A stretch of DNA of 64,000 nt, taken from assembly GCA_963796875.1 (NCBI GenBank), contig CAWCNL010000002.1:1153134-1217133 (forward strand), read 5' to 3'. Source of the DNA: an uncultured Actinomycetes bacterium (lineage in GTDB: Bacteria > Actinomycetota > Thermoleophilia > Gaiellales > JAICJC01). Made by a program: the position numbers and the translations under genes. Numbering within the stretch: the first letter of the stretch is position 1; each line of letters begins with the position of its first letter. Below the pieces are notes generated by a model that was not told the DNA's origin, made no database searches, and worked only from the letters and a program-made list of their open reading frames with translations. This document shows positions 3,485 through 61,699 of this stretch, piece by piece.

Positions 3485-3517
3485 ATGAATAAAAGGGGTC
3501 TGACCCCTTTTATTCAT
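3485..3517. repeat. simple palindromic repeat, GGGGTC-N-GACCCC family (33-nt perfect palindrome)
   Basis: ATGAATAAAAGGGGTC T GACCCCTTTTATTCAT. Same family as 12452-12488 and 52185-52215. The A-tract/GC-stem/T-tract layout resembles a bidirectional intrinsic terminator. Confidence 0.85.
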
Positions 3518-3544
3518 GAGCGTTTCTGCGTTGTCCCCTTAACG

Positions 3545-3581
3545 AGCCGAGGCTCCCTGCAGCTAGGGAGCCTCGGCTTTT
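3545..3581 (+). terminator. intrinsic terminator-like hairpin with T-tail
   Basis: AGCCGAGGCTCCCT-gcagct-AGGGAGCCTCGGCT followed by TTTTG. The 14-bp GC-rich stem lies between the convergent GH18 gene and the minus-strand gene ending at 3633. Confidence 0.6.
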
Positions 3582-3632
3582 GGGGGTAACGGCCCCCCCG
3601 GAGAAGGCCGTTGGGTGGAGCCGCGGTTTGGG

Positions 3633-4127
3633 CTACGGCGTGGTTGCGGTGTACGTCAGCGTGTCGCTGAACGGATTACCCGACACCGCGTCGCCCCACT
3701 GCAGCGCAAGTGCGTACTGCAGCGGCACGTTGGTGACGCCTGCGGCGCCCGTGCCGATCGTCTGACCGGCATTGCTCAGAGTCACGTTGGTGGCGCCGTT
3801 GGTGATCGTCATCCGGCTATCCGGAATCGTCAGCGGCGTGGGGGTGGTCGTGTCCTTGAAGTTGCCGGTGCCGTTGACCTTCAGCGTCCAGCCGGCGTTG
3901 GAAGAAACCGTCGCGGTGGTTGCCGAGGGGACAGTGGTCGTCGATAGCGGGCTGACGGAGCCGAACGAGAACGACGCCGCGCTCAGGGACAGCTGGATGG
4001 CGGCCTGGTTGGTAAAGGTCACCGTCTGGTTCTGCGTTACCGTGGTCGCCGCCGTAGCGGGAGCCACAGCCACCGCAAGAGCGGCGGCGCTGACGCACGC
4101 GGCCAGCGCGATGCGTGCTCGGGACAT
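3633..4127 (-). CDS. small secreted WxL-like domain protein
   Basis: Internal ATG at 4127 of ORF 3633..4574, preceded by AAGGAGAA. Signal peptide MSRARIALAACVSAAALAVAVAPATA. T/S/N-rich beta-type sequence with SNAGWTLKV and a C-terminal ..FSDTLTYTATTP. Paralogous to the C-terminal domain of the 4312..5787 protein. Confidence 0.7.
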   Translation of the reverse strand: MSRARIALAACVSAAALAVAVAPATAATTVTQNQTVTFTNQAAIQLSLSAASFSFGSVSPLSTTTVPSATTATVSSNAGWTLKVNGTGNFKDTTTPTPLTIPDSRMTITNGATNVTLSNAGQTIGTGAAGVTNVPLQYALALQWGDAVSGNPFSDTLTYTATTP

Positions 4128-4311
4128 TGAGCTTCTCCTTGAGACTGTTGGGACGGAACGCCGGCCGGTTTCGGACGACGCAGAACCAATCGGCCCCCCA
4201 CCGGGGGACACCCATGCCCCTTTTGGGGGATTCCCCGCCGCCCTCGGCCGGGTGATGCCCCTGTTTCCGTGTTTGGCAGGAACCTGCGTGTGAATTGCGA
4301 ACGGGGAAGCG

Positions 4312-5787
4312 ATGCAAAACCACCTTGCGCGGTTCGCCGTTCTGGCCCTGGGCCTGACGGCGGCCGTCGTGCTGTCCCCGGCCGCGGCATTCGCGGCCAC
4401 CAATCTGATCCAGAATCCTGGCTTCGAAACGCTGGGCGCAACCACCCAAACCATGTTCTCGGACACGCTCGCCGACATGAGCGCGTGGACGGTGACGAGC
4501 GGTGGAGCGACCGCCTCCGGCGGTGTGCTGACCCCTACCGGTGCCAAGAAGACCTCGGACATCGCCGTGATCACCGGATCGGATCACACCACCAACGGCA
4601 CGTTCCAGGTGCAGGGCATCCCCACCAACGTCGTCGCGGGCCTCTCCGGCGGCCTGGTGTTCCGCTATCAGGGCACCGGGTCGTTCTACGCGTGCACGGT
4701 GACCAGCAATGCGCTGCAGCTGGTCGAGCGCGACAGCGGCGTGGACACGGTGCTCAAGACCTCGGCGATGAGCGTGCAGGCGGGCTTGCCCGGCTGGCTG
4801 CGCGTGACCGCGACCGGGTCGTCGCTGACCTGCGCGGCGTACGGCAACACCAACAACGCGCCGGGCACGCTGATCGCGAGCGTCACGACCACCGACACCA
4901 CGTACACCTACGGCGCGGTGGGCGTCTACGACACCAACACCACCAACGCCGCCGGAAAGATGCTGACGTTCGACAACCCGACGATCACGGGCACGGGGCC
5001 CGCGAGTTGGGGAGCGCTGACGACGACGGCAGGGACGCCCGGCGAGACGGTCGATACCGTGCAGCCGAACACCGGCACCACCTCGCTGCGGCTCTACGCC
5101 GGCGCCTCGACCGACGACGGCTACGTCGCCCAGACGGGGATCGCGGTCACGGCCAACACGACGTACACGCTCTCGGCCAGCATCGCGACTGCCGGTCTGT
5201 CTGCAGCGACCGGCGCCCAGGTGATCGCGATCGAATCGCCCAGCAACACCCAGACCGTGCTCTCGAGCAGCTCGGCAACGGCCGGGTACACGCTCTACTC
5301 CACCACCTTCACCACCAGGACCAACACGACGTCGGTGGCAATCCGGGTGCGGCTGCTTGGCGCCGGCACGGCCAACTTCGACGATCTATCGCTGGCAGTC
5401 GCCAACACCGTCACCCTTGCGCTCAACACCGCCACGGTCGGACTGGGCAACATCTCGCCGCTGACCTCGCCGCTCACACTGCTCTCGGCGACCACCGCGA
5501 CGGTGGTCTCGAACGCCGGGTGGACGCTCTCGGCACTCGGCACCGGCCCGTTCACCGACGGCGCCGGCGGGCACTCGATCGCGCTCTCGGCGCTCGCGTG
5601 GCGGCGCAACGGCACCACCACATTCACCCCGTTCACCACAACCGCGACCACCGTCACCACCGGCACCGCAACCACCCCGGCAGGCGTGGCGACTCCCGTC
5701 GACTACCGCCTGACCGTCGGCTACTCCGACCCAGCCTCGTCCACCCCGTACTCAACGACGATCACCTACGTCGCCACGACCCCGTGA
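4312..5787 (+). CDS. secreted multidomain protein: ConA/LamG-like jelly-roll + CBM4_9-like module + C-terminal WxL-like domain
   Basis: 491-aa ORF with signal peptide MQNHLARFAVLALGLTAAVVLSPAAAFA. NLIQNPGFE and a second CBM-like stretch ending NFDDLSL. The C-terminal ~135 aa share ATTATVVSNAGWTL and ..STTITYVATTP with the 3633..4127 product. Confidence 0.7.
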   Translation: MQNHLARFAVLALGLTAAVVLSPAAAFAATNLIQNPGFETLGATTQTMFSDTLADMSAWTVTSGGATASGGVLTPTGAKKTSDIAVITGSDHTTNGTFQVQGIPTNVVAGLSGGLVFRYQGTGSFYACTVTSNALQLVERDSGVDTVLKTSAMSVQAGLPGWLRVTATGSSLTCAAYGNTNNAPGTLIASVTTTDTTYTYGAVGVYDTNTTNAAGKMLTFDNPTITGTGPASWGALTTTAGTPGETVDTVQPNTGTTSLRLYAGASTDDGYVAQTGIAVTANTTYTLSASIATAGLSAATGAQVIAIESPSNTQTVLSSSSATAGYTLYSTTFTTRTNTTSVAIRVRLLGAGTANFDDLSLAVANTVTLALNTATVGLGNISPLTSPLTLLSATTATVVSNAGWTLSALGTGPFTDGAGGHSIALSALAWRRNGTTTFTPFTTTATTVTTGTATTPAGVATPVDYRLTVGYSDPASSTPYSTTITYVATTP

Positions 5788-5798
5788 GGTAACCAGCC

Positions 5799-6815
5799 AT
5801 GTCCCGCCGTCCCATCATCGCCGTACTCGCCCTGCTCCTGCTCGGCGCGCTGGCCGCTGTCCCCATCGCCGCGGCCACCGACCAGCCGACCACACCGCTC
5901 AGCCTGGGTGTCGCGCCCTCCAAGCTCCAGCTGCGGCTGAAGCCCGGGCACACTGTGCGAGCCAATCTCAAGATCTACAACAAGGGCTCCAAACCCGTGA
6001 CCATCGACGTGTTCCCGCAGGACTACACGGTCGACATGGACTCCAACGTGAAGTTCCTGCCGGCCGGCACGCTGCGTGGATCGGCGGCGCCGTGGACGAC
6101 GCTCTCCGAGACGCTGCTGAAGGTTCCCGCCGGGGGGTATCGCAACGTGGTCGCGACCATCCGCGTACCGCGGAGCATCCCGCCCGGAACCCACACCCTG
6201 GCAATCCTCTTTCGGTCGCACACCATCACCTCTTCGGCGGGCCTGCGCTACCAGTCTGCGGTGGCGTCGTTGATGGCAGCGGGCGTGACCGACGCCAACG
6301 GCGGAGGGCTGGTGCTGAAGGCCGGCGTGCTCGCCAAGTCGACGTCGGTGCAGTGGAAGTCGCTGCTCTCGGTGCGCTCGCCCAGCGGGCTGATCCACGC
6401 CCTGTTCAAGCCGACCATCACCACCAACATCGCTGTGGTCAACTCGGGCAACACGTTCTTCAATATCCTGCACGGCGCGGTGACCTACAAGAAGGGCCTC
6501 TCGCTGGGCGGCTCTGGCACCACCATCAAGGCGCCGCACTACACGATCCTGCCGGGCTCGACGCGCCTGATCACGATCGCGTGGACGAGTGCGCCGTTCA
6601 TCGGCTGGTCGACGGTGCAGACCAGCTTCTACTACAACCCGACCACCGCGCTCTCGCTGACCTCGCCCGATCGCGTGCTGATCATCCCGTGGAACCTGCT
6701 GTTCGTGGTCACGGTGATGACCGCGCTCGTGGTGGTCTGGCGGCTGATGCGCGCCCGCCGCCGGCGCCGCGCGCAGGCTCCGGGCCGCAAGGTGGTCTGG
6801 GCCAACAGCAAGTAA
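5799..6815 (+). CDS. DUF916/DUF3324-like cell-surface protein with C-terminal membrane anchor
   Basis: 338-aa ORF with a signal peptide. Two beta-sandwich-like halves (..LRLKPGHTVRANLKIYNKGSKPVTIDVFPQDY.. and ..VPAGGYRNVVATIRVPRSIPPGTHTLAILF..). C-terminal TM helix followed by RLMRARRRRR. This architecture accompanies WxL genes in Firmicutes csc clusters. Confidence 0.65.
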   Translation: MSRRPIIAVLALLLLGALAAVPIAAATDQPTTPLSLGVAPSKLQLRLKPGHTVRANLKIYNKGSKPVTIDVFPQDYTVDMDSNVKFLPAGTLRGSAAPWTTLSETLLKVPAGGYRNVVATIRVPRSIPPGTHTLAILFRSHTITSSAGLRYQSAVASLMAAGVTDANGGGLVLKAGVLAKSTSVQWKSLLSVRSPSGLIHALFKPTITTNIAVVNSGNTFFNILHGAVTYKKGLSLGGSGTTIKAPHYTILPGSTRLITIAWTSAPFIGWSTVQTSFYYNPTTALSLTSPDRVLIIPWNLLFVVTVMTALVVVWRLMRARRRRRAQAPGRKVVWANSK

Positions 6816-6822
6816 GCACCCG

Positions 6823-6855
6823 ACGCATACCTCGTGCCAGGCACGAGGTATGCGT
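6823..6855. repeat. palindromic repeat, GTGCC-N-GGCAC family (33-nt perfect palindrome)
   Basis: ACGCATACCTCGTGCC A GGCACGAGGTATGCGT, starting 8 nt after the stop of the 5799..6815 gene. Confidence 0.85.
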
Positions 6856-7012
6856 TCGCCTGCGGTGCTAGAGTCACCGATGCCGGTTTGCGCTTGTCCG
6901 AGAACGCGCCGGTCCGCCGCGTCGCCAACGTCATCGTGAGTCCGCCTCCGCGCATGCGCATCCGCGCGCGCCCAGGCTGGGCCCTATCCGACCCGCGAAA
7001 GAGTGTCTCAAC

Positions 7013-7827
7013 GTGTCCGCAGAACCCGCAGTCGAAGTACATGAGCTGACAAAGAAGTTCGTCCGCCGTGACGGCTCGCGGCGGCGTGGTCACAAGCAGT
7101 GGGCCACCGCGCTTGACGCCGTGTCGTTCACCATCGAGCGCGGCGAGTGCGTGGCGATCCTCGGCCAGAACGGCTCGGGCAAGTCGACGCTGGTGCGGCT
7201 GCTCTCGACGCTGCTCCTGCACGACGGCGGCACGGCGCGGGTGTTCGGCGTGGACGTGTTCAAGCATCCCCGCCAGGTGCGACGCATGGTCAACCGGGTG
7301 TCGGTCGAGGCGTCGTTCTTCAAGCGGATGTCGCCGCTCGAGAACCTCAGCTACTCGGCGCGGTTCTACGGGCTGGGGATCAAGGAGACGCGCACGCAGA
7401 TTCCGCTGATCCTGGAGCGGGTCGGGTTTCCCCCGACCGCGCGACCGAGCCGATGGAGGATCTGTCGCGCGGAATGCAGCAGAAGATCGCGCTGGCCCGG
7501 GCGCTGATGACCTCGCCGATGCTGCTGCTGCTGGACGAGCCGACCACGGGGCTCGATCCGCGCTCCAAACGCGAAGTGCAGGCGTTCGTGGCGTCGATCC
7601 GCGAGTCGACCGACGTGACCACGCTTCTGTGCACCCACGACATGGTCGAGGCCGGAGCGATGGCCGATCGCGTCGGGATTCTCCACAACGGCCGGCTGCT
7701 GTGCCTGGAGCCGACCGCCGACATCCTGGCCCGGTACGAGGCCGACGATCTGGAGGGCGCGTTCCTGGCCGCCACCGGTCGCGAGTTTGAGGACGAGTTC
7801 GACGATCGGGAGGTGGCGCAGCAATGA
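7013..7827 (+). pseudogene. ABC transporter ATP-binding protein (ABC-2/DrrA-like), one frameshift
   Basis: The N-terminal part is in ORF 7013..7507 (Walker A GQNGSGKST). The C-terminal part is in ORF 7147..7827 (signature LSRGMQQK, Walker B LLLLDEPT). The frame switches at the C-run ~7430-7434. Confidence 0.85.
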
Positions 7828-7834
7828 TGAAGGG

Positions 7835-8647
7835 ATGCGTCGAGAGGCGATCGGCTTTGCCGGCATCGTCGAGCGAAACACCTATCTGATCCGGCGGTTC
7901 GTGTGGTGGGAGCTGGCGTGGTTCCTCTACACGATCGCCAACACGCTCACGATCGTCTTCATCGCCAAGGGCGTGGAGGCCTCCGGCGGCCACATCGACG
8001 TGAACCAGACGATGATCGTGCTGCTGATCGGCGCGGTCGTGTGGTCGTATCTCGGGCTGATCTTCGAGATCGTCACCGAGACGGTCGCCTGGGAGCGGTG
8101 GGAGGGCACCATCGAATACACGTTCATGGCGCCGCTGTCGCGCCCGGCGCATCTGCTGGGCATGGGCGCGTTCGCGGTGCTCTACGGCGTGCTGCGCACC
8201 ATCCTGCTGTTCGGCGTGGTGGCGTGGATGCTGGGCGTGAACTTCAGCTAACGCGAACTTCACCGGCGCGATCGTGGTGCTGGCCGTGTCCTCGGTGTCG
8301 TTTGTGGGCATCGGCATGATGACCGCGGTGCTGCCGCTGATCTCGCCCGAGAAGGGCACGCAGCTGGGGTTCATCGCGCAGGGCATGCTGCTGGTCGTCT
8401 CGGGTGTCTATTACCCGGTGTCGGTGCTGCCGCAGTGGATGCAGTGGCTGGCCAAGATCTCGCCGGCCACCTATACGCTCGAGGGGGCCGGCACGCGATC
8501 GTGGACGGTGCGGCGCTGGGGGCGCTGTGGGGCGACATGTGGCCGTTGATCGTGATCGGCGTGATCTCGATCCCCGGGGGGCTCTTCATCTTCAACCGTG
8601 GCGAGGTGTACGCCAAGCGCCACGGCCGCCTGAAGCGATCGGGGTAG
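7835..8647 (+). pseudogene. ABC-2 type transporter permease, two frameshifts
   Basis: Hydrophobic protein spread over ORF 7787..8251 (from ATG 7835), ORF 8274..8549 and ORF 8435..8647. Frame switches at ~8230-8250 and at the G-run 8483-8487. Confidence 0.75.
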
Positions 8648-8744
8648 TGCATAAAGGGGTCAGCCACCTTTTGTGCATCCGTTGCGTTGGTTGCAACCCT
8701 TGGCCTCCGCCCATGCACAAAAGGTGGCTGACCCCTTTATGCAT
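8648..8744. repeat. composite palindromic element (~97 bp; 31-nt arms, 34-nt spacer), TGCA-terminus subtype
   Basis: Left arm TGCATAAAGGGGTCAGCCACCTTTTGTGCAT (8648-8678) is the reverse complement of 8713-8743. Near-copy at 45949-46041. Begins 1 nt after the permease stop. Confidence 0.9.
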
Positions 8745-8761
8745 CGTGGCCTGCGATAGGG

Positions 8762-10608: not shown

Positions 10609-12461
10609 GCGACACCGTGCGGCTCACCACCGGACAGGCCATCGTCCGCTTTCTGGCGGCGCAGTGGACGGTGCGTGACGGCGTCGAGCGACCGCTCTTT
10701 GCCGGGGTGCTCGGAATCTTCGGGCACGGCAACGTCGCGGGCCTCGGCCAGGCGCTGATGCAGGAGCGCGACACGCTCACCTACGTGCCCGCGCGAAACG
10801 AGCAGGCGATGGTGCACATCGCCTCGGCGTACGCCAAGGCGTCCAACCGCATGCAGGCGTGGGCCTGCACGTCGTCGATCGGCCCGGGCGCCACCAACAT
10901 GGTCACCGGCGCGGCGCTTGCCACCATCAACCGGCTGCCGGTGCTGCTCTTGCCCGGCGACGTCTTTGCCAACCGCCGGCCGGGGGCGGTGCTGCAGCAG
11001 CTCGAGCAGCCCGGCTCGCTCGAGACCAGCGTGAACGATGCCTTTCGTCCGGTGTGCCGCTACTGGGATCGCATCTGGCGCCCCGACCAGCTGCCGTCGG
11101 CGCTGCTTGCGGCCACCCGGGTGCTGACCGACCAGGCCGAGACCGGAGCGGTCTGCCTTGCGCTACCGCAGGATGTGCAGGCCGAGGCGTGGGACTTCCC
11201 CGTCGAGCTGTTTGAGCAGCGCAAGTGGGTGATCGACCGGCAGCCGCCGCCGCTCGAGCGCCTCGACCGGGCCGCCGAGTTGATCCGCGACGCGCGCCGG
11301 CCGGTGATCGTGGCCGGCGGCGGAGTGATCTACAGCGAGGCCACCGATGCCCTGCGCGCGCTGGTCGATGCAACCGGAATCCCGGTGTGCGAGACCCAGG
11401 CCGGCAAGGGCGCGATGCCCTACGACCACCCTGCCGCCCTCGGCGCGGCCGGTGCCACCGGCACGTTTGCCGCAAACGTGGTGCTGCGCGACGCCGACCT
11501 CGTGATCGGCGTCGGCACCCGTTACAGCGACTTCACCACCGCCTCGCAGTCGGCCTTTGCCGCCGACGCGCGGTTCGTCAACCTGAACGCGGCCGCGGTC
11601 GACGCGCACAAGCAGTCCGCGCTGCCCGTGGTGGGCGACGCGCGCGCCGCGCTCGAGCTGCTGGCAGCCGCGCTCACCGGGCATGCGGTGGACGAGGGCT
11701 ACCGCGCGCGAAATGCCGAGCTCGTGCGCGAGTGGGACGCCGAGGTCGAGCGGCTCTACTCCCGCGGCGGCGGCCCCATCTTCGCCCAGTCGACAGTGAT
11801 CGGCGCGGTCAACGATCTGTCCCAGCCCGAAGACGTGGTGGTGTGCGCGGCCGGCAGCCTGCCCGGCGACCTGCACAAGCTGTGGCGCACGCGCGACCCC
11901 AAGGGCTACCACCTGGAGTACGGCTACTCGTGCATGGGCTACGAGCTGCCCGGCGGCATCGGCGTGCGCATGGCATCGCCCGCACGCGAGGTGTTCGTGA
12001 TGGTCGGCGACGGCAGCTGGCTGATGATGCCGGGCGAGCTCGCCACCGCCATCCAGCAGCACATCAAGCTCGTGATCGTCCTGATCGACAGCGGCGGGTA
12101 CGCGTCCATCGGCGCGCTCTCCGACTCGGTCGGCACGCAGCGGTTCGGCACGCAGCTGCTCGATGTCGACGGCCAGCCGCTGGGCATCGACCTGGCCGCG
12201 AATCTCGAGAGCTACGGCATCGACGTGCTGCGGCCGCAGACGATCCCCGAGCTGCGCGAGTCCGTGGCAACCGCGCGGGCGGCCATGCAGACCACCGCGA
12301 TCTACGTGCGCACCGATCCGCTGGTCGGCGTGCCCGGCTACGAGTCGTGGTGGGACGTACCGGTCGCCGAGGTCAGCACCGTCGAGACGGTGCAGCAGGC
12401 CCGCGCCGCCTACGAGGCCGCCTTGGCCAAGGTCCACCGCCACCTCAAGCCCCCTGAATAA
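10605..12461 (+). CDS. iolD: 3D-(3,5/4)-trihydroxycyclohexane-1,2-dione acylhydrolase (ThDP enzyme)
   Basis: From ATG 10605 (ATGA overlap with the iolB stop). MSDTVRLTTGQAIVRFL.., ThDP-binding fold, 618 aa. Confidence 0.85.
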   Translation: MSDTVRLTTGQAIVRFLAAQWTVRDGVERPLFAGVLGIFGHGNVAGLGQALMQERDTLTYVPARNEQAMVHIASAYAKASNRMQAWACTSSIGPGATNMVTGAALATINRLPVLLLPGDVFANRRPGAVLQQLEQPGSLETSVNDAFRPVCRYWDRIWRPDQLPSALLAATRVLTDQAETGAVCLALPQDVQAEAWDFPVELFEQRKWVIDRQPPPLERLDRAAELIRDARRPVIVAGGGVIYSEATDALRALVDATGIPVCETQAGKGAMPYDHPAALGAAGATGTFAANVVLRDADLVIGVGTRYSDFTTASQSAFAADARFVNLNAAAVDAHKQSALPVVGDARAALELLAAALTGHAVDEGYRARNAELVREWDAEVERLYSRGGGPIFAQSTVIGAVNDLSQPEDVVVCAAGSLPGDLHKLWRTRDPKGYHLEYGYSCMGYELPGGIGVRMASPAREVFVMVGDGSWLMMPGELATAIQQHIKLVIVLIDSGGYASIGALSDSVGTQRFGTQLLDVDGQPLGIDLAANLESYGIDVLRPQTIPELRESVATARAAMQTTAIYVRTDPLVGVPGYESWWDVPVAEVSTVETVQQARAAYEAALAKVHRHLKPPE

Positions 12462-12488
12462 AAGGGGTCAGACCCCTTTAATTCAGGG
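12452..12488. repeat. simple palindromic repeat, GGGGTC-A-GACCCC family
   Basis: CCCTGAATAAAAGGGGTC A GACCCCTTTAATTCAGGG (one mismatch). Contains the iolD TAA (12459-12461) and, on the other strand, the stop of the 12483..13475 gene (12483-12485). Confidence 0.9.
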
Positions 12489-16497: not shown

Positions 16498-17444
16498 GTG
16501 ACCGCGCGGCCGAGCTCGGCCGGCGCCGCAGACTGCATCGCATCACCCGCGACGGCGTTTTCGCACTGGTTGCGATCGATCACCGAGATTCGCTTCAGGT
16601 GGCGTTCGAGGGCGCGGGGCTCGAGCCGCTCAGCGGTGCCGAGATCGCCGAGTTCAAGGGCCGGGTGATCGATGCGCTGACTCCCGCCGCCACCGGCGTG
16701 CTGATCGACGCCGAGCACGGCGCCCAGGCACTGGCCGGCGGGTCTGCCGCGGCGCTTTCCGTGGTGATGCCGCTCGAGGCGCAGGGCTACGGCGACGCTG
16801 CGCAGGGCCGCACGTCATCGTTTCTACCCAACTGGGGGCCCGACCGCGCAGTCCGCGCGGGGGCCGATGCCTGCAAGCTCCTGCTGCCGTTCCGGGCCGA
16901 TCACGACGCGTCCGCGGAGGCACAGCTGGAAGTGGTGCGCCAGGCCGTGGCGGGTTGCCGCGCGGCCGGCCTTCCGTTGATTCTCGAGCCGATCGTCTAT
17001 CCGCTTCCCGGCGAGGACGCGGCCGTGTATGCGGCAGCGTTCCCCGAGCATGTGGTGCGCGGCGCCGAGCGCCTGCAGGCCCTCGAGCCGGACGTGCTCA
17101 AGGTGCAGTTTCCCGTCACCGAAGGCGACGCTGCCGAGTGGTGCCGGCGCATCGACGCGGCCTGTGGGCCGGTGCCGTGGGTGCTTCTGGGCGGCGGCGC
17201 GGCGGTCGACGTGTTTCGCGAACAGGTCGAGGTGGCCTGCGCGGCAGGGGCATCCGGCTACATCGTCGGGCGCACCGCCTGGAAGGGCGCGGTCACGGCC
17301 GATACCGCCGCCCGCGACCGGTGGCTGGTGGAGGTGGGCCGGCCGCAGCTGGCCGCGATCCGCGACCGCGCGCTGCAGATCGCCCGGCCGTGGACCGACC
17401 GCGTGGCGCCGCTGCCCGAGTACGCGAGCAGCTGGCTGGAGTGA
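16494..17444 (+). CDS. class I aldolase-like (beta/alpha)8 protein (LacD/IolJ-like; candidate 5-dehydro-2-deoxyphosphogluconate aldolase)
   Basis: 316-aa ORF with a GTG start overlapping the upstream stop. Sits in the iol context. The family assignment rests on overall resemblance only. Confidence 0.55.
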   Translation: MSDRAAELGRRRRLHRITRDGVFALVAIDHRDSLQVAFEGAGLEPLSGAEIAEFKGRVIDALTPAATGVLIDAEHGAQALAGGSAAALSVVMPLEAQGYGDAAQGRTSSFLPNWGPDRAVRAGADACKLLLPFRADHDASAEAQLEVVRQAVAGCRAAGLPLILEPIVYPLPGEDAAVYAAAFPEHVVRGAERLQALEPDVLKVQFPVTEGDAAEWCRRIDAACGPVPWVLLGGGAAVDVFREQVEVACAAGASGYIVGRTAWKGAVTADTAARDRWLVEVGRPQLAAIRDRALQIARPWTDRVAPLPEYASSWLE

Positions 17445-17538
17445 ATAAGAGGGGTCAGTCGCCATTTATTCACACCGCTTCGGTCGGGCACTTCACGCCG
17501 ACCACGTGAATAAATGGCGACTGACCCCTCTTATGCAC
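17441..17538. repeat. composite palindromic element (98 bp; 33-nt arms, 32-nt spacer), GTGAATAA subtype
   Basis: Left arm GTGAATAAGAGGGGTCAGTCGCCATTTATTCAC; right arm GTGAATAAATGGCGACTGACCCCTCTTATGCAC (one mismatch). Contains the stops of both convergent genes (TGA 17442-17444; TAA on minus at 17531-17533). Confidence 0.9.
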
Positions 17539-25623: not shown

Positions 25624-26282
25624 TCTGGGATTTCGACGGGACGCTGGCTCGGCGGATCGGTAACTGGCGCGGCGCCATGATCGAGGTGCTCGACGAGCAT
25701 CACGGCGAGCATGCCGTGACCATGGAGGCGCTCTCGCCGCTGATCCACAACCGGTTCCCGTGGGATCGCGCCGACGTCGTGCACCACGAGCTGAGCGACG
25801 ATCCCGACGAGTGGTGGGCGCCGATGCAGACGATGATCGCCGACGCCTATCGCGGCGTCGGCCATGGTCCGCGCGCCGACGAGTTCGCCGGGCTGGTGCG
25901 GCAGCGGTTCGTCGATCATCGGTATTCGTGGGAGGTGTTCGCCGACACCGTCCCGGCGCTCGAGCGGTTGAGCGCGGCAGGCTGGGAGCACGTGGTGCTG
26001 TCCAACCACGTGCCCGAGCTGCCGCTGCTGGCGCGCGGGCTGGGGCTGGAGGGGCGGTTTCGGGCGATCATCACCTCGGCGCTGATCGGGTATGAGAAGC
26101 CGCATCCCGAGGCGTTTCGGCTGGCGCTCGAGGCCGCCGGCCATCCCGATCAGGTGTGGATGGTGGGCGACAACCCGGTGGCCGACGTGCAGGGGGCCGA
26201 GGCGGTCGGCATCCCCGCCCTGCAGGTGCGCACCGGCGGCCTGCCCGACGCCGCCGCTGCCGCCGACCACATCCTCGGCTGA
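25620..26282 (+). CDS. HAD family hydrolase
   Basis: 220-aa ORF. HAD motif I in WDFDGTL, with a late ..MVGDNPVADVQGA.. motif. The GTG start overlaps the GT4 stop. Confidence 0.8.
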   Translation: MIWDFDGTLARRIGNWRGAMIEVLDEHHGEHAVTMEALSPLIHNRFPWDRADVVHHELSDDPDEWWAPMQTMIADAYRGVGHGPRADEFAGLVRQRFVDHRYSWEVFADTVPALERLSAAGWEHVVLSNHVPELPLLARGLGLEGRFRAIITSALIGYEKPHPEAFRLALEAAGHPDQVWMVGDNPVADVQGAEAVGIPALQVRTGGLPDAAAAADHILG

Positions 26283-26283
26283 A

Positions 26284-26374
26284 AGAAAGTGTCAGGCAGT
26301 TGTTATTCACGCCAGCGCTTGATGGCACGGCAATGAACGTGGTGAATAACAACTGCCTGACACTTTCTATTCAC
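26284..26374. repeat. composite palindromic element (divergent GTGAATAA subtype; 27-nt perfect arms, 31-nt spacer)
   Basis: AGAAAGTGTCAGGCAGTTGTTATTCAC (26284-26310) is the exact reverse complement of 26342-26368. Right end ..CTATTCAC. Flanked by the HAD stop (26280-26282) and the purH stop (26376-26378). Confidence 0.9.
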
Positions 26375-36304: not shown

Positions 36305-36402
36305 GTGAATAAGAGGGGTCAGTCGCCATTTATTCACACCGGTTCGGTCGGGCGCTTCGCGCCGGCCACGTGAATAAATGGCGACTGACCCCTCTTATTC
36401 AC
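36305..36402. repeat. composite palindromic element (98 bp; perfect 33-nt arms), GTGAATAA subtype, inside the pur operon
   Basis: GTGAATAAGAGGGGTCAGTCGCCATTTATTCAC (36305-36337) and its exact reverse complement (36370-36402). Left arm identical to the 17441 copy, right arm differs at 1 nt; the spacer differs at 4 of 32 positions. Confidence 0.9.
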
Positions 36403-38203: not shown

Positions 38204-38238
38204 GACGCATACAAAGTGCCAGGCACTTTCTATGCGTC
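38204..38238. repeat. palindromic repeat, GTGCC-N-GGCAC family
   Basis: GACGCATACAAAGTGCC A GGCACTTTCTATGCGTC (one mismatch). Lies 36 nt upstream of the purD start and contains the stop (38230-38232) of the small ORF. Confidence 0.85.
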
Positions 38239-38530: not shown

Positions 38531-38568
38531 GAACTGCAACAAACGTGCCTGGCACGTTTGTTGCGTTC
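38531..38568. repeat. palindromic repeat, GTGCC-N-GGCAC family
   Basis: The perfect 29-nt core GCAACAAACGTGCC T GGCACGTTTGTTGC (38536-38564) is identical to the core at 61631-61659. Lies just downstream of the cyclohydrolase gene. Confidence 0.9.
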
Positions 38569-45948: not shown

Positions 45949-46041
45949 AAAGGGGGTCAGCCACCTTTTGTGCATCCGTGGCGTTTGTTGCAACCCTAGG
46001 CGTTTGCCCATGCACAAAAGGTGGCTGACCCCCTTTGTGCG
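45949..46041. repeat. composite palindromic element, TGCA-terminus subtype (copy of 8648-8744)
   Basis: Arms AAAGGGGGTCAGCCACCTTTTGTGCAT (45949-45975) and ATGCACAAAAGGTGGCTGACCCCCTTTGTGCG (46010-46041). The 34-nt spacer matches the 8679-8712 spacer at 28 of 34 positions. Abuts the regulator stop at 46042. Confidence 0.9.
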
Positions 46042-51439: not shown

Positions 51440-51448
51440 ATCCGCATG

Positions 51449-52177: not shown

Positions 52178-52184
52178 CTCAGGA

Positions 52185-52215
52185 TGAATAACAGGGGTCA
52201 GACCCCTGTTATTCA
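52185..52215. repeat. simple palindromic repeat, GGGGTC-A-GACCCC family (31-nt perfect)
   Basis: TGAATAACAGGGGTC A GACCCCTGTTATTCA, between the convergent USP-like and flavin reductase genes. Confidence 0.9.
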
Positions 52216-52229
52216 CAGTTTCCGTCCGG

Positions 52230-52783: not shown

Positions 52784-53545
52784 ATGCCACCAACCGGAAG
52801 ACCTGCAGAGCGTCATCTGGCCGCTGTCGAGCGCGCGACCCGCGTGCTGGATGCCTTTCTGCAGCAGCCTGCAGAGGCCCGCGCGACGGATATTGCCCAG
52901 ATCACGGGCATCAATCCGTCCTCGGTCTCGCGCATCCTCGCGACGCTGGTGGCGGCAGGCTATGTCGAGCACCTGCCGTCCACCGGCCGCTATCGGCTGG
53001 GGACGCACCTGCTGGCGCTGGCCAACCATGTGCTCGCCGGCATCGACGTGCGCGCGATCGCCCGCGGTCACCTCACAGCGTTGGTCGAGGAGACCGGCGA
53101 GACCGCCACCCTCTCGATCCCCGGCGACACCGATGCGGTCACTGTCGACTTCGTGGCGAGTGCGGCGTCGGTCGTGAGCGTCGCGCGCGTCGGCCGGCCC
53201 AGCGTCGGCCACGCGACGGCAGCGGGCAAGGTGGGCCTGGCGTTCGGACGGTCAGTGCCGGCGGCGGTGCTCGAGCCGCTGACCGATCGCACCATCACCG
53301 ACCCCCAGGCGCTCGGACGGGCGCTCGACCAGGTGCGCGCTGCGGGATGGGCCCGGGCGGAGGGCGAGCGCGAGGCCGATCTGAACGCGATCGCGGCGCC
53401 GGTATTCGGGCCGGGCGCAGAGCTCGTGGCGATCCTGGGGCTGCAGGGGCCGGCGGGCCGGTTCGACCACGCTTCGCAGGACGCTGCCGCAGCGCACCTG
53501 CTGCGCCACGCCGCCGAGATCAGCCGCTCTCTGGGTGGTGAATAG
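52784..53545 (+). CDS. IclR family transcriptional regulator
   Basis: From ATG 52784 in ORF 52706..53545. A winged HTH (..ATDIAQITGINPSSVSRILATLVAAGYV..) plus an IclR effector domain. Confidence 0.85.
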   Translation: MPPTGRPAERHLAAVERATRVLDAFLQQPAEARATDIAQITGINPSSVSRILATLVAAGYVEHLPSTGRYRLGTHLLALANHVLAGIDVRAIARGHLTALVEETGETATLSIPGDTDAVTVDFVASAASVVSVARVGRPSVGHATAAGKVGLAFGRSVPAAVLEPLTDRTITDPQALGRALDQVRAAGWARAEGEREADLNAIAAPVFGPGAELVAILGLQGPAGRFDHASQDAAAAHLLRHAAEISRSLGGE

Positions 53546-53639
53546 AAGGGGTCAGCGCAGTTTCTATTCACCAGACGAGCTGACAGTACACCTGCAGCCG
53601 TTGGCGTGAATAGAAACTGCGCTGACACCTTCTATTCAC
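53538..53639. repeat. composite palindromic element (102 bp; 34-nt arms, 34-nt spacer), GTGAATAG subtype
   Basis: Left arm GTGAATAGAAGGGGTCAGCGCAGTTTCTATTCAC; right arm GTGAATAGAAACTGCGCTGACACCTTCTATTCAC (one mismatch). Contains the IclR TAG (53543-53545) and the ligase TAG on the minus strand (53632-53634). Confidence 0.9.
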
Positions 53640-55185: not shown

Positions 55186-55196
55186 CCTCGCTCCTT

Positions 55197-59070: not shown

Positions 59071-60192
59071 AGCCGCTCCAGCACGGTGGCGATTCCCTGG
59101 CCGCCGCCGATGCACTGGGTGGCGAGCGCGTAGCGGCCATCCTCGCGCTGCAGCAGCTGCGCGGCCTTGCCGGTGATGCGCGCGCCGGTGGCGCCCAGCG
59201 GGTGACCGAGCGCGATCGCGCCCCCGTCCAGATTCACGCCGGCGGGATCGAGGCCCAGCTGATCGATGCACGCCAGCGCCTGCGAGGCGAACGCTTCGTT
59301 CAGCTCGACGACGTCGATGTCGGCCACATCGATGCCGGCCCGCTCGAGAGCCTTGCGGGTGGCGGCCACCGGGCCGATGCCCATCACCGCGGGGTCGCAG
59401 CCGGCCACCGCGAACGAGCGGATCGCGGCGAGCGGCTCCAGATCGTGCTCGTGGGCGAACCGCTCGCTGGTGACCAGCACGGCGGCGGCGCCGTCGGTCA
59501 GCGGCGACGACGTGTCCGGCCGTTACCGAGCCCTGCGGCGCGAACGCCGGTTTCAGCTCGGCGAGGCCGGTGAGGGTGGTGTCGGGCCGCGGGCATCCGT
59601 CCGCCGTCACGCCCGCCACCGGGATGATCTCGGTCTCGAGCCGCCCGCCCGCGACGGCCGCGGCGGTCTTCTGCTGGCTCTCGAGCGCGAACTGCTCCTG
59701 CCGCTCGCGGGGCACGTCGAACCGCCCGGCCACGTTCTCGGCGGTCTCGCCCATCGTCATGTACATGTCGGGGTAGGACTCGACCAGCGCCGGGTTGTAG
59801 AGCGGGTTGAAGCCGCCCATCGGAACGCGGCTCATCGACTCGACACCGGCACAGATGTATGCCTCGCCCGCGCCCATCGCAATCGACCCGGCGGCGGTGT
59901 GCACGGCCTGCATCGATGAGCCGCAGAACCGGTTGATCGTGGATCCGGCCACCGAGCGCGGCAGCCCGGCGAGGATCGCGACGATGCGGCCCAGGTTCAT
60001 GCCCTGCTCGCCCTCCGGAAAGGCACAGCCCAGCGTGACGTCCTCGATCAGAGCGGGATCGACCCCCGAGCGTTGCACCAGCTCGGCGACGGTGGCGGCG
60101 GCCAGATCATCGGGCCGTACCCGCGCGAACGCCCCGCGCCTGGCCGGCTGAAATGGTGAACGCACATATCCGGCGACGACGGTTCGCTCCAC
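59067..60192 (-). pseudogene. acetyl-CoA C-acyltransferase (thiolase), one frameshift
   Basis: GTG 60192 in the frame of ORF 58414..60306 (..NRFCGSSMQAV.. active-site Cys region), continuing in ORF 59067..59480 (..NEAFASQ.., ..GHPLGATG.., ..CIGGGQG..). Frame switch at ~59511-59521. Confidence 0.85.
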
Positions 60193-60213
60193 GCCTCGAT
60201 CATAGAGCGCATA

Positions 60214-60232
60214 CCCCGTGCCAGGCACGGGG
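60214..60232. repeat. degenerate member of the GTGCC-N-GGCAC palindrome family
   Basis: CCCCGTGCC A GGCACGGGG with flanks GCGCATA / ATAGTCGC (compare 6823-6855). Lies in the divergent intergenic region between the thiolase and FAD oxidoreductase genes. Confidence 0.7.
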
Positions 60233-60320
60233 ATAGTCGCGTTAGGCATCGCACGGTGGTACTCTGTACGAGAAATGGAAATGGCATTGCCGTAGGGGCA
60301 ATGCAACCGAAAGGATCGGC

Positions 60321-61625
60321 ATGAGCCTCCCTTCCAAGGCCAAGTACCTCGTCATCGGGGCCGGCATCCACGGCCTCTCGAGCGCGTGGCACCTGGCGAA
60401 GGAGCAGCGCGCCCGCGGCGAGGAGCCCGACGTGCTGGTGGTCGACAAGACCGGCGTCGGCGCCGGCGCGTCCGGCATCGCCTGCGGCGTCATCCGCAAC
60501 AACTACTTCCAGCCGGCCATGAGCGAGCTGATGGCCGCAAACGTCGAGGTCTGGGAGCAGGATCCGGCCGCCTTCTCGTTCCACGAGGTGGGCTACATCG
60601 CACTCGGCGCCGAGCGCCAGATCGGCGACCTCACCGAGGTCAGCAAGCGACACGAGGCGATCGGCTATCCGTCGCAGCTGATCGTGGGCGAGGCCGAGGT
60701 GCGTGACCACATGAAGGCGATGTTCCCCGACTGGCGCGCCCAGGGCGTGCACGTGGCGCTGCACGAGCAGAAGGGTGGCTTCGCCAACAACATGGCCTCG
60801 CTGCACGGCCTCGCTGCCAAGGCCAAGGAGGCCGGCGCGAAGATCGTTGACGGCGTGCGCGTGACCGGCTTTGAGACCGATTCGAGCGGCGCGGTCACCA
60901 GGGTCAACACCGACCAGGGCGACATCGAGGTCGAGCAGGTCGTGGTGGGCGTCGGCCCCTGGATCGAGCGGCTCTGGACGATGCTCGGCTTGCCGAACAA
61001 GCTCGACGTCCGCACTCCCGAGGGGCAGGTCAACAAGGACCTCGACATGTGGACGTACTGGTACCTGCAGGAGGGCGAGATCGGGGTGGATCCCAAGCTG
61101 CTCTCGCTGGAGGACGGCTCGATGCCGCCGGTGCTGCACGTCGACTCCGACGCGCCGCTCTACGACGACGAGGGCAAGCTGATCACCGACGAGTTCTGGG
61201 GCAACTACTTCAAGCAGGACCTGCACGGCGTGCAGGGCGGTGCCGCTCCGGTGGTCGTCGGCCACGAGTACGAGGTCGACCCCTATCCCACGGCGTCGGT
61301 CGAAAACGACTTCGCTGACATGTGGTGCGCGTCGCTTTCACACTGCATGAAGCGGTTCGAGGGCAAGCGCCCCACGTACAAGAACATCCGCTCGGGCGGC
61401 GTCGGCTGCTTCACCGTCGACAGCTTCCCGGTGTTCGACTACATGCTGCCCAACGTGTACGTGATCGCCGACTCCAACCACGGCTACAAGATGATCGGTG
61501 TGGGCCGCGAGGTCGCGCGGGTGATGAGCGGGGGCGAGTCGAAGGTGCTCGAGCCGTTCAGCTACGAGCGCTTCTCGACCGGCAAGCTCCATCCGGTCAG
61601 CAACAGCCCGTATCCCTGGAGCTAG
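60321..61625 (+). CDS. FAD-dependent oxidoreductase (DAO family, sarcosine-oxidase-beta-like)
   Basis: Intact 434-aa ORF with an N-terminal dinucleotide fold KYLVIGAGIHGLSSAWHLAKE. Confidence 0.75.
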   Translation: MSLPSKAKYLVIGAGIHGLSSAWHLAKEQRARGEEPDVLVVDKTGVGAGASGIACGVIRNNYFQPAMSELMAANVEVWEQDPAAFSFHEVGYIALGAERQIGDLTEVSKRHEAIGYPSQLIVGEAEVRDHMKAMFPDWRAQGVHVALHEQKGGFANNMASLHGLAAKAKEAGAKIVDGVRVTGFETDSSGAVTRVNTDQGDIEVEQVVVGVGPWIERLWTMLGLPNKLDVRTPEGQVNKDLDMWTYWYLQEGEIGVDPKLLSLEDGSMPPVLHVDSDAPLYDDEGKLITDEFWGNYFKQDLHGVQGGAAPVVVGHEYEVDPYPTASVENDFADMWCASLSHCMKRFEGKRPTYKNIRSGGVGCFTVDSFPVFDYMLPNVYVIADSNHGYKMIGVGREVARVMSGGESKVLEPFSYERFSTGKLHPVSNSPYPWS

Positions 61626-61664
61626 CCACTGCAACAAACGTGCCTGGCACGTTTGTTGCAGTGG
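61626..61664. repeat. palindromic repeat, GTGCC-N-GGCAC family (39-nt perfect palindrome)
   Basis: CCACTGCAACAAACGTGCC T GGCACGTTTGTTGCAGTGG begins 1 nt after the TAG of the 60321..61625 gene. Its 29-nt core is identical to 38536-38564. Confidence 0.9.
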
Positions 61665-61699
61665 GCCGGCCGGCGCGTGGATCATGCGCCGGCCGGCCC
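61663..61699. terminator. GC-rich hairpin adjacent to the 61626 palindrome
   Basis: GGGCCGGCCGGCGC-gtggatcat-GCGCCGGCCGGCCC, followed by TT. Lies between convergent genes. Confidence 0.5.

What the first reader, a model, noticed from the sequence alone, without database searches (positions are those of the whole stretch)
3485..61699. Nearly every transcription-unit end in the window carries a member of two repeat families
About 12 of the roughly 15 operon ends I can define are followed within ~130 nt (most within ~10 nt) by a GGGGTCAG-type element or a GTGCC(A/T)GGCAC-type palindrome. The GGGGTCAG-type elements are at 3485, 8648, 12452, 17441, 26284, 45949, 52185 and 53538. The GTGCC-type palindromes are at 6823, 38204, 38531 and 61626. 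Only three unit ends show unique hairpins with no family member (49361, 51449; 3545 follows the 3485 palindrome), and a fourth unique hairpin (61663) directly abuts the 61626 palindrome. The simple forms (A-tract, GGGG stem, T-tract) look like bidirectional intrinsic terminators. Conserved sequence, not just conserved structure, in terminators recalls the inverted DNA-uptake sequences of Neisseria and Haemophilus, or REP elements bound by dedicated proteins. The function here is unknown.
Basis: partly seen in the sequence, partly recalled or inferred. Interest (0 to 1): 0.6.

Follow-up and report, generated by a model that had tools for sequence, protein, structure and literature searches.

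The report
REP/REPIN repeats with their own transposases
The hairpin repeats at gene ends are REP/REPIN-type miniature mobile elements of an uncultured soil actinobacterium, each family flanking its own dedicated single-strand DNA transposase gene (RAYT) elsewhere in the genome. This is a known kind of system in a little-studied lineage, and whether the repeats also stop transcription is untested.

Summary
The core motifs are 40- to 1000-fold over-represented genome-wide, and about 97% of elements lie outside genes.

There are at least six families, not two, totalling about 390 elements (about 610 arms). Three families occur as inverted doublets around a 32-36-nt spacer (the REPIN architecture). 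Three occur as single perfect palindromes.

The decisive result is that the genome has three RAYT-like Y1/HUH transposase genes. Each is flanked on both sides by a different repeat family. Six of eight RAYT loci in sister species of the genus show the same layout.

- GTGCCWGGCAC is abundant in all seven genus genomes.
- The GGGGTCAG-type doublet arms are abundant only in this genome, and several of their sites are empty in a sister species.

Elements sit hard against stop codons and occupy 34% of convergent intergenic regions genome-wide. This window, at 7 of 8, is in the top 4% for density.

The singlet families make up 81% of all hairpin-plus-T-tract sites behind genes.

DNA-uptake sequences are rejected.

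Verdict: a new member of a known kind (REP/REPIN-RAYT, HTH-bearing "TIRYT" type).

The parts
3485..3517 (.). F5 singlet palindrome ATGAATAAAAGGGGTCTGACCCCTTTTATTCAT in a convergent gap. It is preceded at 3445-3484 by a half GTGCC core plus an AGGAAGTGAAC linker, the remnant of a composite element.
   Evidence: RNA fold -20 to -22 kcal/mol on both strands. The linker recurs in other composite elements.
6822..6856 (.). F4b singlet GACGCATACCTCGTGCCAGGCACGAGGTATGCGTT, 6 nt after a stop codon.
   Evidence: Fold -28.9 kcal/mol. The orthologous gap in G005 holds a GTGAATAAATGGTGCCAGGCACC... element.
8647..8744 (.). F2 doublet (REPIN-like): two inverted GTGCATAAAGGGGTCAGCCACCTTTTGTGCAT arms around a 34-nt spacer.
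   Evidence: Fold -69.2 kcal/mol. The site is empty in the sister species G005.
12454..12486 (.). F5 singlet CTGAATAAAAGGGGTCAGACCCCTTTAATTCAG that fills a 21-nt convergent gap. Both stop codons lie inside its arms.
   Evidence: Fold -27.7 and -30.6 kcal/mol on the two strands.
17441..17538 (.). F1 doublet: GTGAATAAGAGGGGTCAGTCGCCATTTATTCAC, spacer, inverted arm. The stop codons of both convergent genes lie inside the outer arms.
   Evidence: Fold -68 to -69 kcal/mol. G005 has a GTGCC-type singlet at the same gap, and the G003 gap holds no family member (one small unrelated hairpin, read by eye).
26280..26374 (.). F3-type doublet (core GTGTCAGGCAG, outer GTGAATAACAAC) that fills a convergent gap.
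36305..36402 (.).
   Evidence: The site is empty in G005.
38204..38238 (.). F4b-like singlet GACGCATACAAAGTGCCAGGCACTTTCTATGCGTC.
   Evidence: G005 has a GTGAATAACGGTGCCAGGCACC... element in the same gap.
38534..38564 (.). F4a singlet CTGCAACAAACGTGCCTGGCACGTTTGTTGC, 15 nt after a minus-strand stop codon.
   Evidence: The position is occupied in G005.
45949..46041 (.). F2 doublet with degenerate outer ends, 9 nt after a minus-strand stop codon.
   Evidence: The site is empty in G005.
52184..52216 (.). F5 singlet ATGAATAACAGGGGTCAGACCCCTGTTATTCAC, abutting a separate ~127-nt repeat at 52051-52178.
53538..53639 (.). F3/F1-hybrid doublet (GTGAATAGAAGGGGTCAGCGCAGTTTCTATTCAC ...). Both convergent stop codons lie inside it.
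   Evidence: Fold -73 kcal/mol. G005 has a GTGCC-type singlet here.
60208..60233 (.). Degenerate F4b element (CGCATACCCCGTGCCAGGCACGGGG) upstream of a plus-strand gene.
61627..61663 (.). F4a singlet CACTGCAACAAACGTGCCTGGCACGTTTGTTGCAGTG, 3 nt after a stop codon and abutting a unique hairpin at 61663-61699.
   Evidence: Folds -35 to -36 kcal/mol. Unique hairpin -41 kcal/mol.

Best explanation
The elements are REP/REPIN-type non-autonomous repeats. Shown: there are at least six related sequence families. Each has an AT-rich outer stem (TGAATAA, TGCATAA or TGCAACAA), which is unusual in a 69% G+C genome, and a G+C-rich core (GGGGTCAG..., GTGCCWGGCAC or GGGGACWGTCCCC). Three families are inverted doublets with a 32-36-nt spacer. 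Three are single perfect palindromes. The genome has three RAYT-like Y1/HUH tyrosine transposase genes of the type that carries a C-terminal helix-turn-helix. Each is bracketed by one repeat group.

Inferred, by analogy with E. coli TnpA-REP and the IS200/IS605 family: the transposase recognises the folded hairpin in single-stranded DNA, cuts beside it, and copies or moves it without a target duplication. Copies survive where they do no harm, which is immediately behind stop codons and above all between convergent genes. The TGA/TAA/TAG built into the outer arms lets an element serve as the stop codon itself.

Inferred and untested: the singlet forms (A-tract, G+C stem, T-tract) may also end or attenuate transcription in both directions. 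The 30-bp-stem doublets may act as 3' RNA stabilisers or processing sites.

The confidence given is for the identity as a RAYT-linked REP/REPIN system. For the terminator role I put the odds at about even.
For: 1. **Transposase genes are present.** Three Y1_Tnp matches occur in the window's own genome. Two also match NCBIfam 'REP-associated tyrosine transposase' over positions 4-146 of 146, at 62.6 and 79.3 bits against a cut-off of 80. A 12-sequence profile hits only one solved structure, E. coli TnpA-REP 4ER8, at E = 4.4e-5, with the HUH and Y---NP motifs aligned.
2. **Each gene is flanked by its own family.** C2:1394203 is flanked by F1, C2:89368 by F4a, and C2:1147644 (5 kb upstream of the window) by F2/F6.
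3. **The layout is conserved in the genus.** Six of 8 RAYT loci in sister species are flanked, 755-770 nt apart, by (G/C)TGAATAA-N2-3-GGTGCCWGGCACC-N2-3-TTATTCA. The central base is A upstream and T downstream. More distant Actinomycetota RAYTs are flanked by GTGCCWGGCAC or GGGGTCAGACCCC elements.
4. **Doublet architecture.** There are 54, 55 and 44 head-to-head doublets. The head-to-head '+-' order dominates; only 3 F1 pairs are in direct orientation and no tail-to-tail ('-+') pair was catalogued. The two arms of one element match each other better than arms of different elements: 1.18 against 2.27 mismatches for F1, with 0 of 2000 permutations as low. Spacer length is conserved. These are the features described for REPINs (PMC3116915).
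5. **Mobility.** GGGGTCAGYCRCC has 273 sites here and 0-4 in each of 40 relatives, including the same genus. Sites 8647, 36305 and 45953 are empty in G005. Site 17441 carries a different family in G005, and in G003 the gap holds no family member (one small unrelated hairpin, read by eye). No target duplications are visible.
6. **Location.** 182 elements are in convergent gaps, 166 in tandem gaps, 29 in divergent gaps and 13 deep in genes. The stop codon is within 3 nt in 110 of 182 convergent cases. Families without built-in stop codons still sit a median of 9 nt from a stop.
7. **Published match.** GGGGTCAG fits the published TIRYT inverted-repeat motif GGGGWSAS (PMC3733652). The C-terminal HTH_23-like domain fits Y1 subclass 2.1, which corresponds to RAYT Group 1 (PMC6006769).
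Against: - In all three RAYT genes of this genome the HTH part is in a different reading frame from the catalytic part. One copy also has an internal stop codon. The enzymes may be dead here, or the assembly may carry indel errors. It is 74.6% 'complete', and several window genes look split when compared with G005.
- F3 has no RAYT of its own in the assembly.
- The classical GTAG or CGTC tag of REPs is absent.
- F1 and F3 spacers are essentially unrelated between copies: only 7 of 44 and 6 of 40 have any related partner. Simple copying of the whole doublet does not predict this.
- No binding, cleavage or transposition has been shown.
- There are no transcript data for the terminator part. Two gaps (3485 with 3545, and 61627 with 61663) also hold a strong unique hairpin, so the repeat need not be the terminator there.
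Confidence: 0.85

Rival explanations
1. The elements are host-selected bidirectional intrinsic terminators. Their sequence is conserved because a host protein or RNA polymerase needs it. They are not mobile DNA.
For: Singlet forms have an A-tract, a G+C stem and a T-tract. Of 144 hairpin-plus-T-tract sites within 150 nt behind a same-strand stop codon, 116 are these elements. The remaining 28 are at the level seen by chance in coding DNA. The elements are strongly tied to gene 3' ends.
Against: - The doublet families are abundant in this species only.
- Orthologous sites are empty or hold another family in sister species.
- Every family group brackets a transposase gene.
- Doublets and F4b lack a T-tract tail.
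- 29 elements lie in divergent gaps.
- The tool's own terminator scan flags none of them in positions 1-20000.
- A terminator role as a secondary, co-opted function is not excluded.
Confidence: 0.06
2. The elements are DNA uptake sequences, like the DUS of Neisseria or the USS of Haemophilus, placed as inverted pairs in terminators to favour uptake of the species' own DNA.
For: The sequence within terminator-like palindromes is conserved. A ComEC homologue is present.
Against: - There are six different families rather than one short motif.
- Density is about 1 per 9 kb, not about 1 per kb.
- About 97% of elements are extragenic, whereas uptake sequences are common inside genes.
- The most abundant cores are absent from the sister species.
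- ComEC occurs in 10 of 14 control genomes, including non-competent ones. The copy here carries an in-frame TGA.
Confidence: 0.02
3. The elements are MITEs derived from a conventional (DDE-type) insertion sequence. They would be mobilised in trans through their terminal inverted repeats.
For: The ~100-nt elements have about 33-nt perfect inverted ends, and there are many copies.
Against: - No target-site duplications appear in the flanks of 80 or more aligned copies.
- The only gene seen carrying these ends at the loci examined is the Y1/HUH RAYT-like gene; no genome-wide search for a DDE-type element was made.
- The arms are themselves hairpins and also occur as singlets.
Confidence: 0.03

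Closest known systems
REPIN-RAYT systems of Pseudomonas fluorescens SBW25 and E. coli REP/BIME with TnpA-REP (Nunvar 2010; Bertels and Rainey 2011, PMC3116915; structure 4ER8)
   Same: - A low-copy Y1/HUH transposase gene is bracketed by the same short palindromes that are scattered hundreds of times outside genes.
- There is one repeat family per transposase gene.
- Doublets are inverted and form long hairpins.
- Compensatory changes occur between arms. Spacers are variable in sequence but fixed in length.
- There are no target duplications.
- The elements prefer gene 3' ends, and stop codons are supplied by the repeat ends.
   Different: - The host is an uncultured Actinomycetota lineage, not Proteobacteria.
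- There is no GTAG or CGTC tag. The outer stems are AT-rich (TGAATAA or TGCATAA).
- The enzyme carries a C-terminal HTH and scores just under the NCBIfam RAYT cut-off.
- Three of the families are perfect single palindromes shaped like bidirectional terminators.
TIRYT/TIRtrons (Di Nocera et al. 2013, PMC3733652), equivalent to Y1 subclass 2.1 and RAYT Group 1 (Quentin et al. 2018, PMC6006769; Bertels et al. 2017, PMC5581495)
   Same: - The RAYT-like enzyme has a C-terminal HTH_23-type domain.
- The flanking inverted repeats carry GGGGWSAS, here GGGGTCAG.
- Repeats occur as singlets, dimers and clusters.
   Different: - Published accounts report only moderate repeat families for TIRYTs, and no REP-like structures next to subclass 2.1 genes. 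Here about 390 elements form clear hairpins and doublets.
- One of the three groups uses a different core, GTGCCWGGCAC.
- The 2018 survey found only IS200-type (subclass 1.1) genes in the Actinobacteridae it sampled.
- Placement of these proteins in subclass 2.1 was not tested by phylogeny.
Inverted DUS/USS pairs that act as terminators in Neisseria and Haemophilus
   Same: Conserved sequence inside palindromes at gene ends.
   Different: Here there are many families. The elements are almost entirely extragenic, the doublet cores are specific to this species, and each group is linked to a transposase gene.

Membership tests
REP/REPIN-RAYT system (REPtron) | Y1/HUH transposase of the RAYT type, with an HUH motif and a catalytic Tyr in Y---NP | tested here: met
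   PF01797 scores 31-33 bits against a cut-off of 23. NF047646 covers positions 4-146 of 146 at 62.6 and 79.3 bits, just under the cut-off of 80. HVH and YxxxNP are invariant in the alignment. The profile hits only 4ER8 TnpA-REP.
REP/REPIN-RAYT system (REPtron) | The transposase gene is flanked on both sides by copies of a repeat that is dispersed through the genome | tested here: met
   Met at 3 of 3 loci in this genome, at 6 of 8 loci in sister species, and at 3 further Actinomycetota loci (L004, L006, L011); L005, the same locus as L100, showed repeats upstream only.
REP/REPIN-RAYT system (REPtron) | Short palindromic repeats, high in copy number and extragenic | tested here: met
   612 arms form 392 elements, of which 13 lie deep in ORFs. 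Over-representation is 40- to 1000-fold over an order-5 Markov model.
REP/REPIN-RAYT system (REPtron) | Inverted doublets that form a hairpin, with compensatory arm changes (REPIN) | tested here: met
   There are 153 head-to-head doublets in F1-F3. Mismatches between the arms of one element are below those between elements, with 0-4 of 2000 permutations as low. Folds are -68 to -73 kcal/mol.
REP/REPIN-RAYT system (REPtron) | GTAG or CGTC tag at one end of the palindrome (the classical REP superfamilies) | tested here: not met
   The ends are TGAATAA, TGCATAA, TGCAACAA or GCATAC, with no conserved GTAG or CGTC. This places the elements outside the two classical REP superfamilies but not outside RAYT-linked repeats.
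REP/REPIN-RAYT system (REPtron) | The enzyme binds and cleaves its single-stranded repeat | not testable with these tools
   Needs biochemistry.
TIRYT / Y1 subclass 2.1 (RAYT Group 1) | C-terminal helix-turn-helix extension (HTH_23, HTH_28 or DnaA_C-like) | tested here: inconclusive
   Intact 229-aa relatives have HTH_23- or HTH_38-type ends. In this genome the HTH is recognisable (HTH_23, 28.5 bits) but lies in another frame in all three copies.
TIRYT / Y1 subclass 2.1 (RAYT Group 1) | Flanking inverted repeats carrying GGGGWSAS | tested here: met
   F1 and F2 arms carry GGGGTCAG. The F4 group (GTGCCWGGCAC) does not.
TIRYT / Y1 subclass 2.1 (RAYT Group 1) | Phylogenetic placement inside subclass 2.1 | not tested
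   No reference sequences of the published subclasses were at hand.
Bidirectional intrinsic terminators | G+C-rich stem-loop with a T-tract after it and an A-tract before it | tested here: inconclusive
   My own scan passes F4a, F5 and F6. The doublets and F4b do not pass. The tool's scan, which extends stems fully, flags none.
Bidirectional intrinsic terminators | Transcript 3' ends map to the element | not testable with these tools
DNA uptake sequences (DUS/USS) | One short motif at about 1 per kb, frequent inside genes, shared across the species group | tested here: not met
   There are six families, at about 1 element per 9 kb, and 97% are extragenic. The doublet cores are absent from sister species.
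MITE of a DDE-type insertion sequence | Target-site duplication and a parent IS with the same ends | tested here: not met
   No duplications appear in aligned flanks. Only Y1/HUH genes carry the ends.

The most novel reading that the evidence does not exclude
The singlet families (F4a, F5, F6) may be portable 3'-end modules that supply both a stop codon and a bidirectional hairpin with a U-tract, spread by HTH-bearing RAYTs. On this reading they provide essentially all canonical intrinsic terminators in a high-G+C actinobacterium that otherwise has none above chance. The system would also be a large, hairpin-forming REPIN population tied to Y1 subclass 2.1 (TIRYT), for which published surveys reported no REP-like partners, in a phylum those surveys did not list.
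Probability: 0.3. Interest if true: 0.6.

Novelty: new member of a known kind. Interest (0 to 1): 0.38.

Why it matters
It replaces 'function unknown' with a specific system that can be tested. REP/REPIN-RAYT partnerships have been worked out almost wholly in Proteobacteria.

This genus offers three things:
- a transposase type (HTH-bearing) whose repeat partners were thought sparse or absent;
- one old family shared by the whole genus beside doublet families that expanded in this species only;
- repeats that account for four-fifths of the terminator-shaped sites behind genes.

That makes it a useful case for two questions. One is whether such repeats are merely tolerated at gene ends or have been taken over as terminators. 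The other is how repeat and enzyme change together.

For annotation, it explains why many stop codons lie inside repeats. It also warns that repeat-rich gaps may mark rearrangement points.

Tried and rejected
2. **Folding-energy comparison.** I compared the best 50-nt folding energy of repeat-free convergent gaps with divergent gaps and with coding DNA. It did not discriminate in this 69% G+C genome (medians -21.2, -21.0 and -23.5 kcal/mol), so it says nothing on how repeat-free units terminate.
3. **Built-in terminator scan.** It flags none of the elements because it extends stems through the A/T tracts. I replaced it with my own minimal-stem scan.
4. **Single-sequence search of solved structures.** It found nothing. 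The profile search was needed.
5. **Rfam.** No family matched at gathering score in the window.
6. **Literature searches** for RAYT or REP in Actinomycetota found no paper in the held library.
7. **First catalogue.** The first 12-mer repeat catalogue was swamped by G+C-rich coding words, and substitution-only matching missed arms with indels. Both were replaced by blastn-short.
8. **ComEC search.** It was positive but does not discriminate.
9. **Built-in stop codons as the cause of stop adjacency.** Rejected as the sole cause, because families without stop codons in their arms also sit a median of 9 nt from a stop.

Full report
**1. The observation**

The window is C2:1153134-1217133 of a 3.43-Mb, 8-contig, 69% G+C assembly. 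GGGGTCAG occurs 15 times against 3.3 expected, and GTGCCWGGCAC 5 times against 0.1.

It also adds two elements: a full doublet at 36305-36402 and a degenerate GTGCC element at 60208. Three GGGGTCAG hits (4528, 9093, 29424) are isolated words inside ORFs with no palindrome.

**2. Families and architecture**

The commonest 12- and 16-mers of the whole genome all belong to these repeats. A blastn-short catalogue gives 612 arms in 392 elements.

| Family | Consensus | Form | Count |
|---|---|---|---|
| F1 | GTGAATAAGAGGGGTCAGTCGCCWTTTATTCAC | doublet | 54 |
| F2 | GTGCATAAAGGGGTCAGCCACCTTTTGTGCAT | doublet | 55 |
| F3 | GTGAATAGAAGGTGTCAGGCAGTTTCTATTCAC | doublet | 44 |
| F4a / F4b | CTGCAACAAACGTGCCWGGCACGTTTGTTGCAG / GACGCATAC..GTGCCWGGCAC..GTATGCGTC | singlet | 122 |
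| F5 | TGAATAAAAGGGGTCWGACCCCTTTTATTCA | singlet | 14 |
| F6 | TGCATAAAAGGGGACWGTCCCCTTTTATGCA | singlet | 29 |

- Doublets are overwhelmingly head-to-head around a 32-36-nt spacer; 3 F1 pairs lie in direct orientation and no tail-to-tail pair was catalogued. They fold at -68 to -73 kcal/mol. Singlets fold at -20 to -36 kcal/mol.
- The two arms of one element match each other better than arms of different elements: 1.18 against 2.27 mismatches for F1, with 0 of 2000 permutations as low.
- Spacer length is conserved, but F1 and F3 spacers are mostly unrelated between copies.
- No target duplications are seen.
- These are the published hallmarks of REPINs: less-conserved spacers, fixed length and compensatory changes (PMC3116915).

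**3. More than chance, and outside genes**

Order-5 Markov expectations are exceeded 40- to 1000-fold. I used my own rough ORF calls. Their stop codons are exact, but starts are conservative, so the called coding fraction is only 76%.

- 182 elements lie in convergent gaps, 166 in tandem gaps, 29 in divergent gaps and 13 deep in ORFs.
- 34% of convergent gaps are occupied, against 7.5% of tandem and 5% of divergent gaps.
- In convergent gaps a stop codon is within 3 nt of the element in 110 of 182 cases. Both stop codons are within 20 nt in 101 of 182.
- In tandem gaps the median distance is 7 nt from the upstream stop and 148 nt from the downstream start.
- Families whose arms contain TGA, TAA or TAG often supply the stop codon. 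F4, which has no built-in stop, still sits a median of 9 nt away.

The window itself is exceptional, however. It has 13 catalogued elements against a mean of 7.4 per 64 kb, which puts it in the top 4% of windows. Seven of 8 convergent gaps and 5 of about 14 wider tandem ends are occupied.

**4. What the elements are**

A Pfam Y1_Tnp search of this genome finds three.

- Two match NCBIfam 'REP-associated tyrosine transposase' over its whole length, at 62.6 and 79.3 bits against a cut-off of 80.
- A profile of these and related proteins hits a single solved structure, E. coli TnpA-REP (4ER8), with the HUH and Y---NP motifs aligned.
- Each gene is flanked on both sides by a different repeat group. 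The gene at C2:1394203 is flanked by F1. The gene at C2:89368 is flanked by F4a. The gene at C2:1147644, 5 kb upstream of the window, has an F2/F6 hybrid doublet upstream and an F2 doublet downstream.

RAYT-like genes occur in 32 of 41 relatives in the same order. In the six other genus genomes, 6 of 8 loci are bracketed by (G/C)TGAATAA-N2-3-GGTGCCWGGCACC-N2-3-TTATTCA, 755-770 nt apart. The central base is A on one side and T on the other, so the two copies are inverted. More distant Actinomycetota RAYTs are bracketed by GTGCCWGGCAC elements or by GGGGTCAGACCCC.

Record titles place the nearest relatives among uncultured Actinomycetes MAGs. One of these shares its contig length with the genus-mate G006.

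**5. Evidence of spread**

- GTGCCWGGCAC has 136-349 sites in all seven genus genomes and is patchy elsewhere in the family.
- GGGGTCAGYCRCC has 273 sites here and 0-4 in each of 40 relatives, including the genus.
- The window is collinear with G005.
- The F2 and F1 doublet sites 8647, 36305 and 45953 are empty in G005, as is the F5 site 12455.
- Sites 6822, 17441, 38204, 38534 and 53538 hold GTGAATAA..GGTGCCWGGCACC singlets in G005.
- At site 17441 the G003 gap holds no family member, only a small unrelated hairpin (by eye).

So one family is old and genus-wide. The doublet families expanded in this species alone. The same gaps are used repeatedly.

**6. Closest published description**

GGGGTCAG fits GGGGWSAS, the motif that Di Nocera et al. 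found in inverted repeats flanking 'TIRYT' genes (PMC3733652).

Intact relatives are 229 aa with a C-terminal HTH_23- or HTH_38-type domain. This is the signature of Y1 subclass 2.1, which corresponds to RAYT Group 1 (PMC6006769).

That survey found no REP-like structures next to subclass 2.1 genes. It found only IS200-type genes in the Actinobacteridae it sampled. I found no paper in the held library describing such a system in Actinomycetota.

Earlier unchecked notes of this scan report similar RAYT-linked GGGGTCWGACCCC repeats in other Thermoleophilia or Gaiellales genomes. I treat these as leads only.

**7. The terminator question**

The singlets have the shape of bidirectional terminators. 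I ran my own scan for a minimal perfect stem of at least 5 bp with at least 4 G-C pairs, followed by at least 5 T in 8 nt.

- It finds 144 sites within 150 nt behind a same-strand stop codon.
- 116 of these (81%) are F4a, F5 or F6 elements.
- The other 28 match the background rate seen in coding DNA, where 295 sites occur.

This genome therefore has essentially no enriched canonical terminators other than these repeats. That can mean one of two things. The repeats may have been taken over as terminators. Alternatively this organism may not use U-tract terminators, and the AT-rich collar serves the transposase.

Several points count against a simple terminator role:
- Doublets and F4b lack a T-tail.
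- The tool's own scan flags none of the elements.

No RNA data could be obtained. I put the odds that the singlets measurably terminate or attenuate transcription at about even.

**8. Caveats**

- In all three RAYT genes here the HTH lies in a different frame from the catalytic domain. The third copy is clearly broken.
- The assembly is rated 74.6% complete. Several window genes look split against G005, so some frame breaks may be assembly errors. Three of three is more than I would expect from error alone.
- F3 has no RAYT of its own in the assembly.
- ORF calls are my own and approximate at gene starts.

**9. Rivals**

- DNA-uptake sequences are excluded by the number of families, the extragenic bias and the restriction of the doublet cores to this species. 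ComEC is present but does not discriminate.
- A DDE-type MITE is excluded by the lack of target duplications and of a parent IS.
- A purely host-built terminator is excluded as the origin, but not as a secondary use.

**10. Verdict**

This is a REP/REPIN-RAYT system of the HTH-bearing (TIRYT-like) type in an uncultured actinobacterial genus. It is a new member of a known kind. One open functional question is worth testing: whether the singlet repeats terminate transcription.

Noticed in passing
window 52051-52178 (partial copy at 24518-24545): A separate ~127-nt repeat (CTGGTCCGCGCCGGCGGTGGCGG ... CCACCACCACCGCGYCCTGCGCCTC) has imperfectly inverted ends. There are about 12-15 full or partial copies genome-wide, some with an internal insertion. 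Here it abuts the F5 element. No Rfam family matches.
   Followed up: partly
window 53632-60320: This 6.7-kb stretch of about eight ORFs is absent from the collinear region of sister species G005, which has a single GTGCC-type repeat at the junction. In this genome the stretch is bounded by the 53538 doublet and the 60208 element. It could be an insertion, or a deletion between repeats.
   Followed up: partly
G000:C2:1147644-1148048 (about 5.1 kb upstream of window position 1): A degraded RAYT-like gene, with one internal TAA and at least two frame changes. It has an F2/F6 hybrid doublet upstream and an F2 doublet downstream.
   Followed up: yes
window 39175-40849, 7013-7827, 28451-29473, 48182-49201: ORFs that match one continuous gene in G005 are split or truncated here, and the assembly is rated 74.6% complete. 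This suggests frequent frameshifts, either real pseudogenes or indel errors in the assembly.
   Followed up: partly
window 3445-3484; also C2:234682-234805, C2:1456618, C2:1530661: Composite elements in which a GTGCC-type palindrome is interrupted at its centre (GTGCCAGG|AAGTGAAC...) by another repeat. One repeat appears to have inserted into the loop of another.
   Followed up: partly
window 12483-13475: The minus-strand gene that ends inside the 12454 palindrome has no counterpart at this position in G005. There the neighbouring genes meet across a 35-nt repeat-free gap.
   Followed up: no
window 3545-3583, 49361-49387, 51448-51486, 61663-61699: Strong unique G+C-rich hairpins (-35 to -41 kcal/mol), two of them directly beside a repeat element. 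The 3545 hairpin is followed directly by a T-run; the 51448 one has a short TTTT 10 nt downstream, inside a second small hairpin.
   Followed up: partly
G000:C5:429446-430120: The ComEC-like competence gene carries one in-frame TGA.
   Followed up: no
F1 and F3 doublets genome-wide: Spacers keep a length of 32-36 nt but are mostly unrelated in sequence between copies, although the arms differ by only about 2 of 33 positions. F2 spacers are related to each other. Simple copying of the whole doublet does not predict this.
   Followed up: partly
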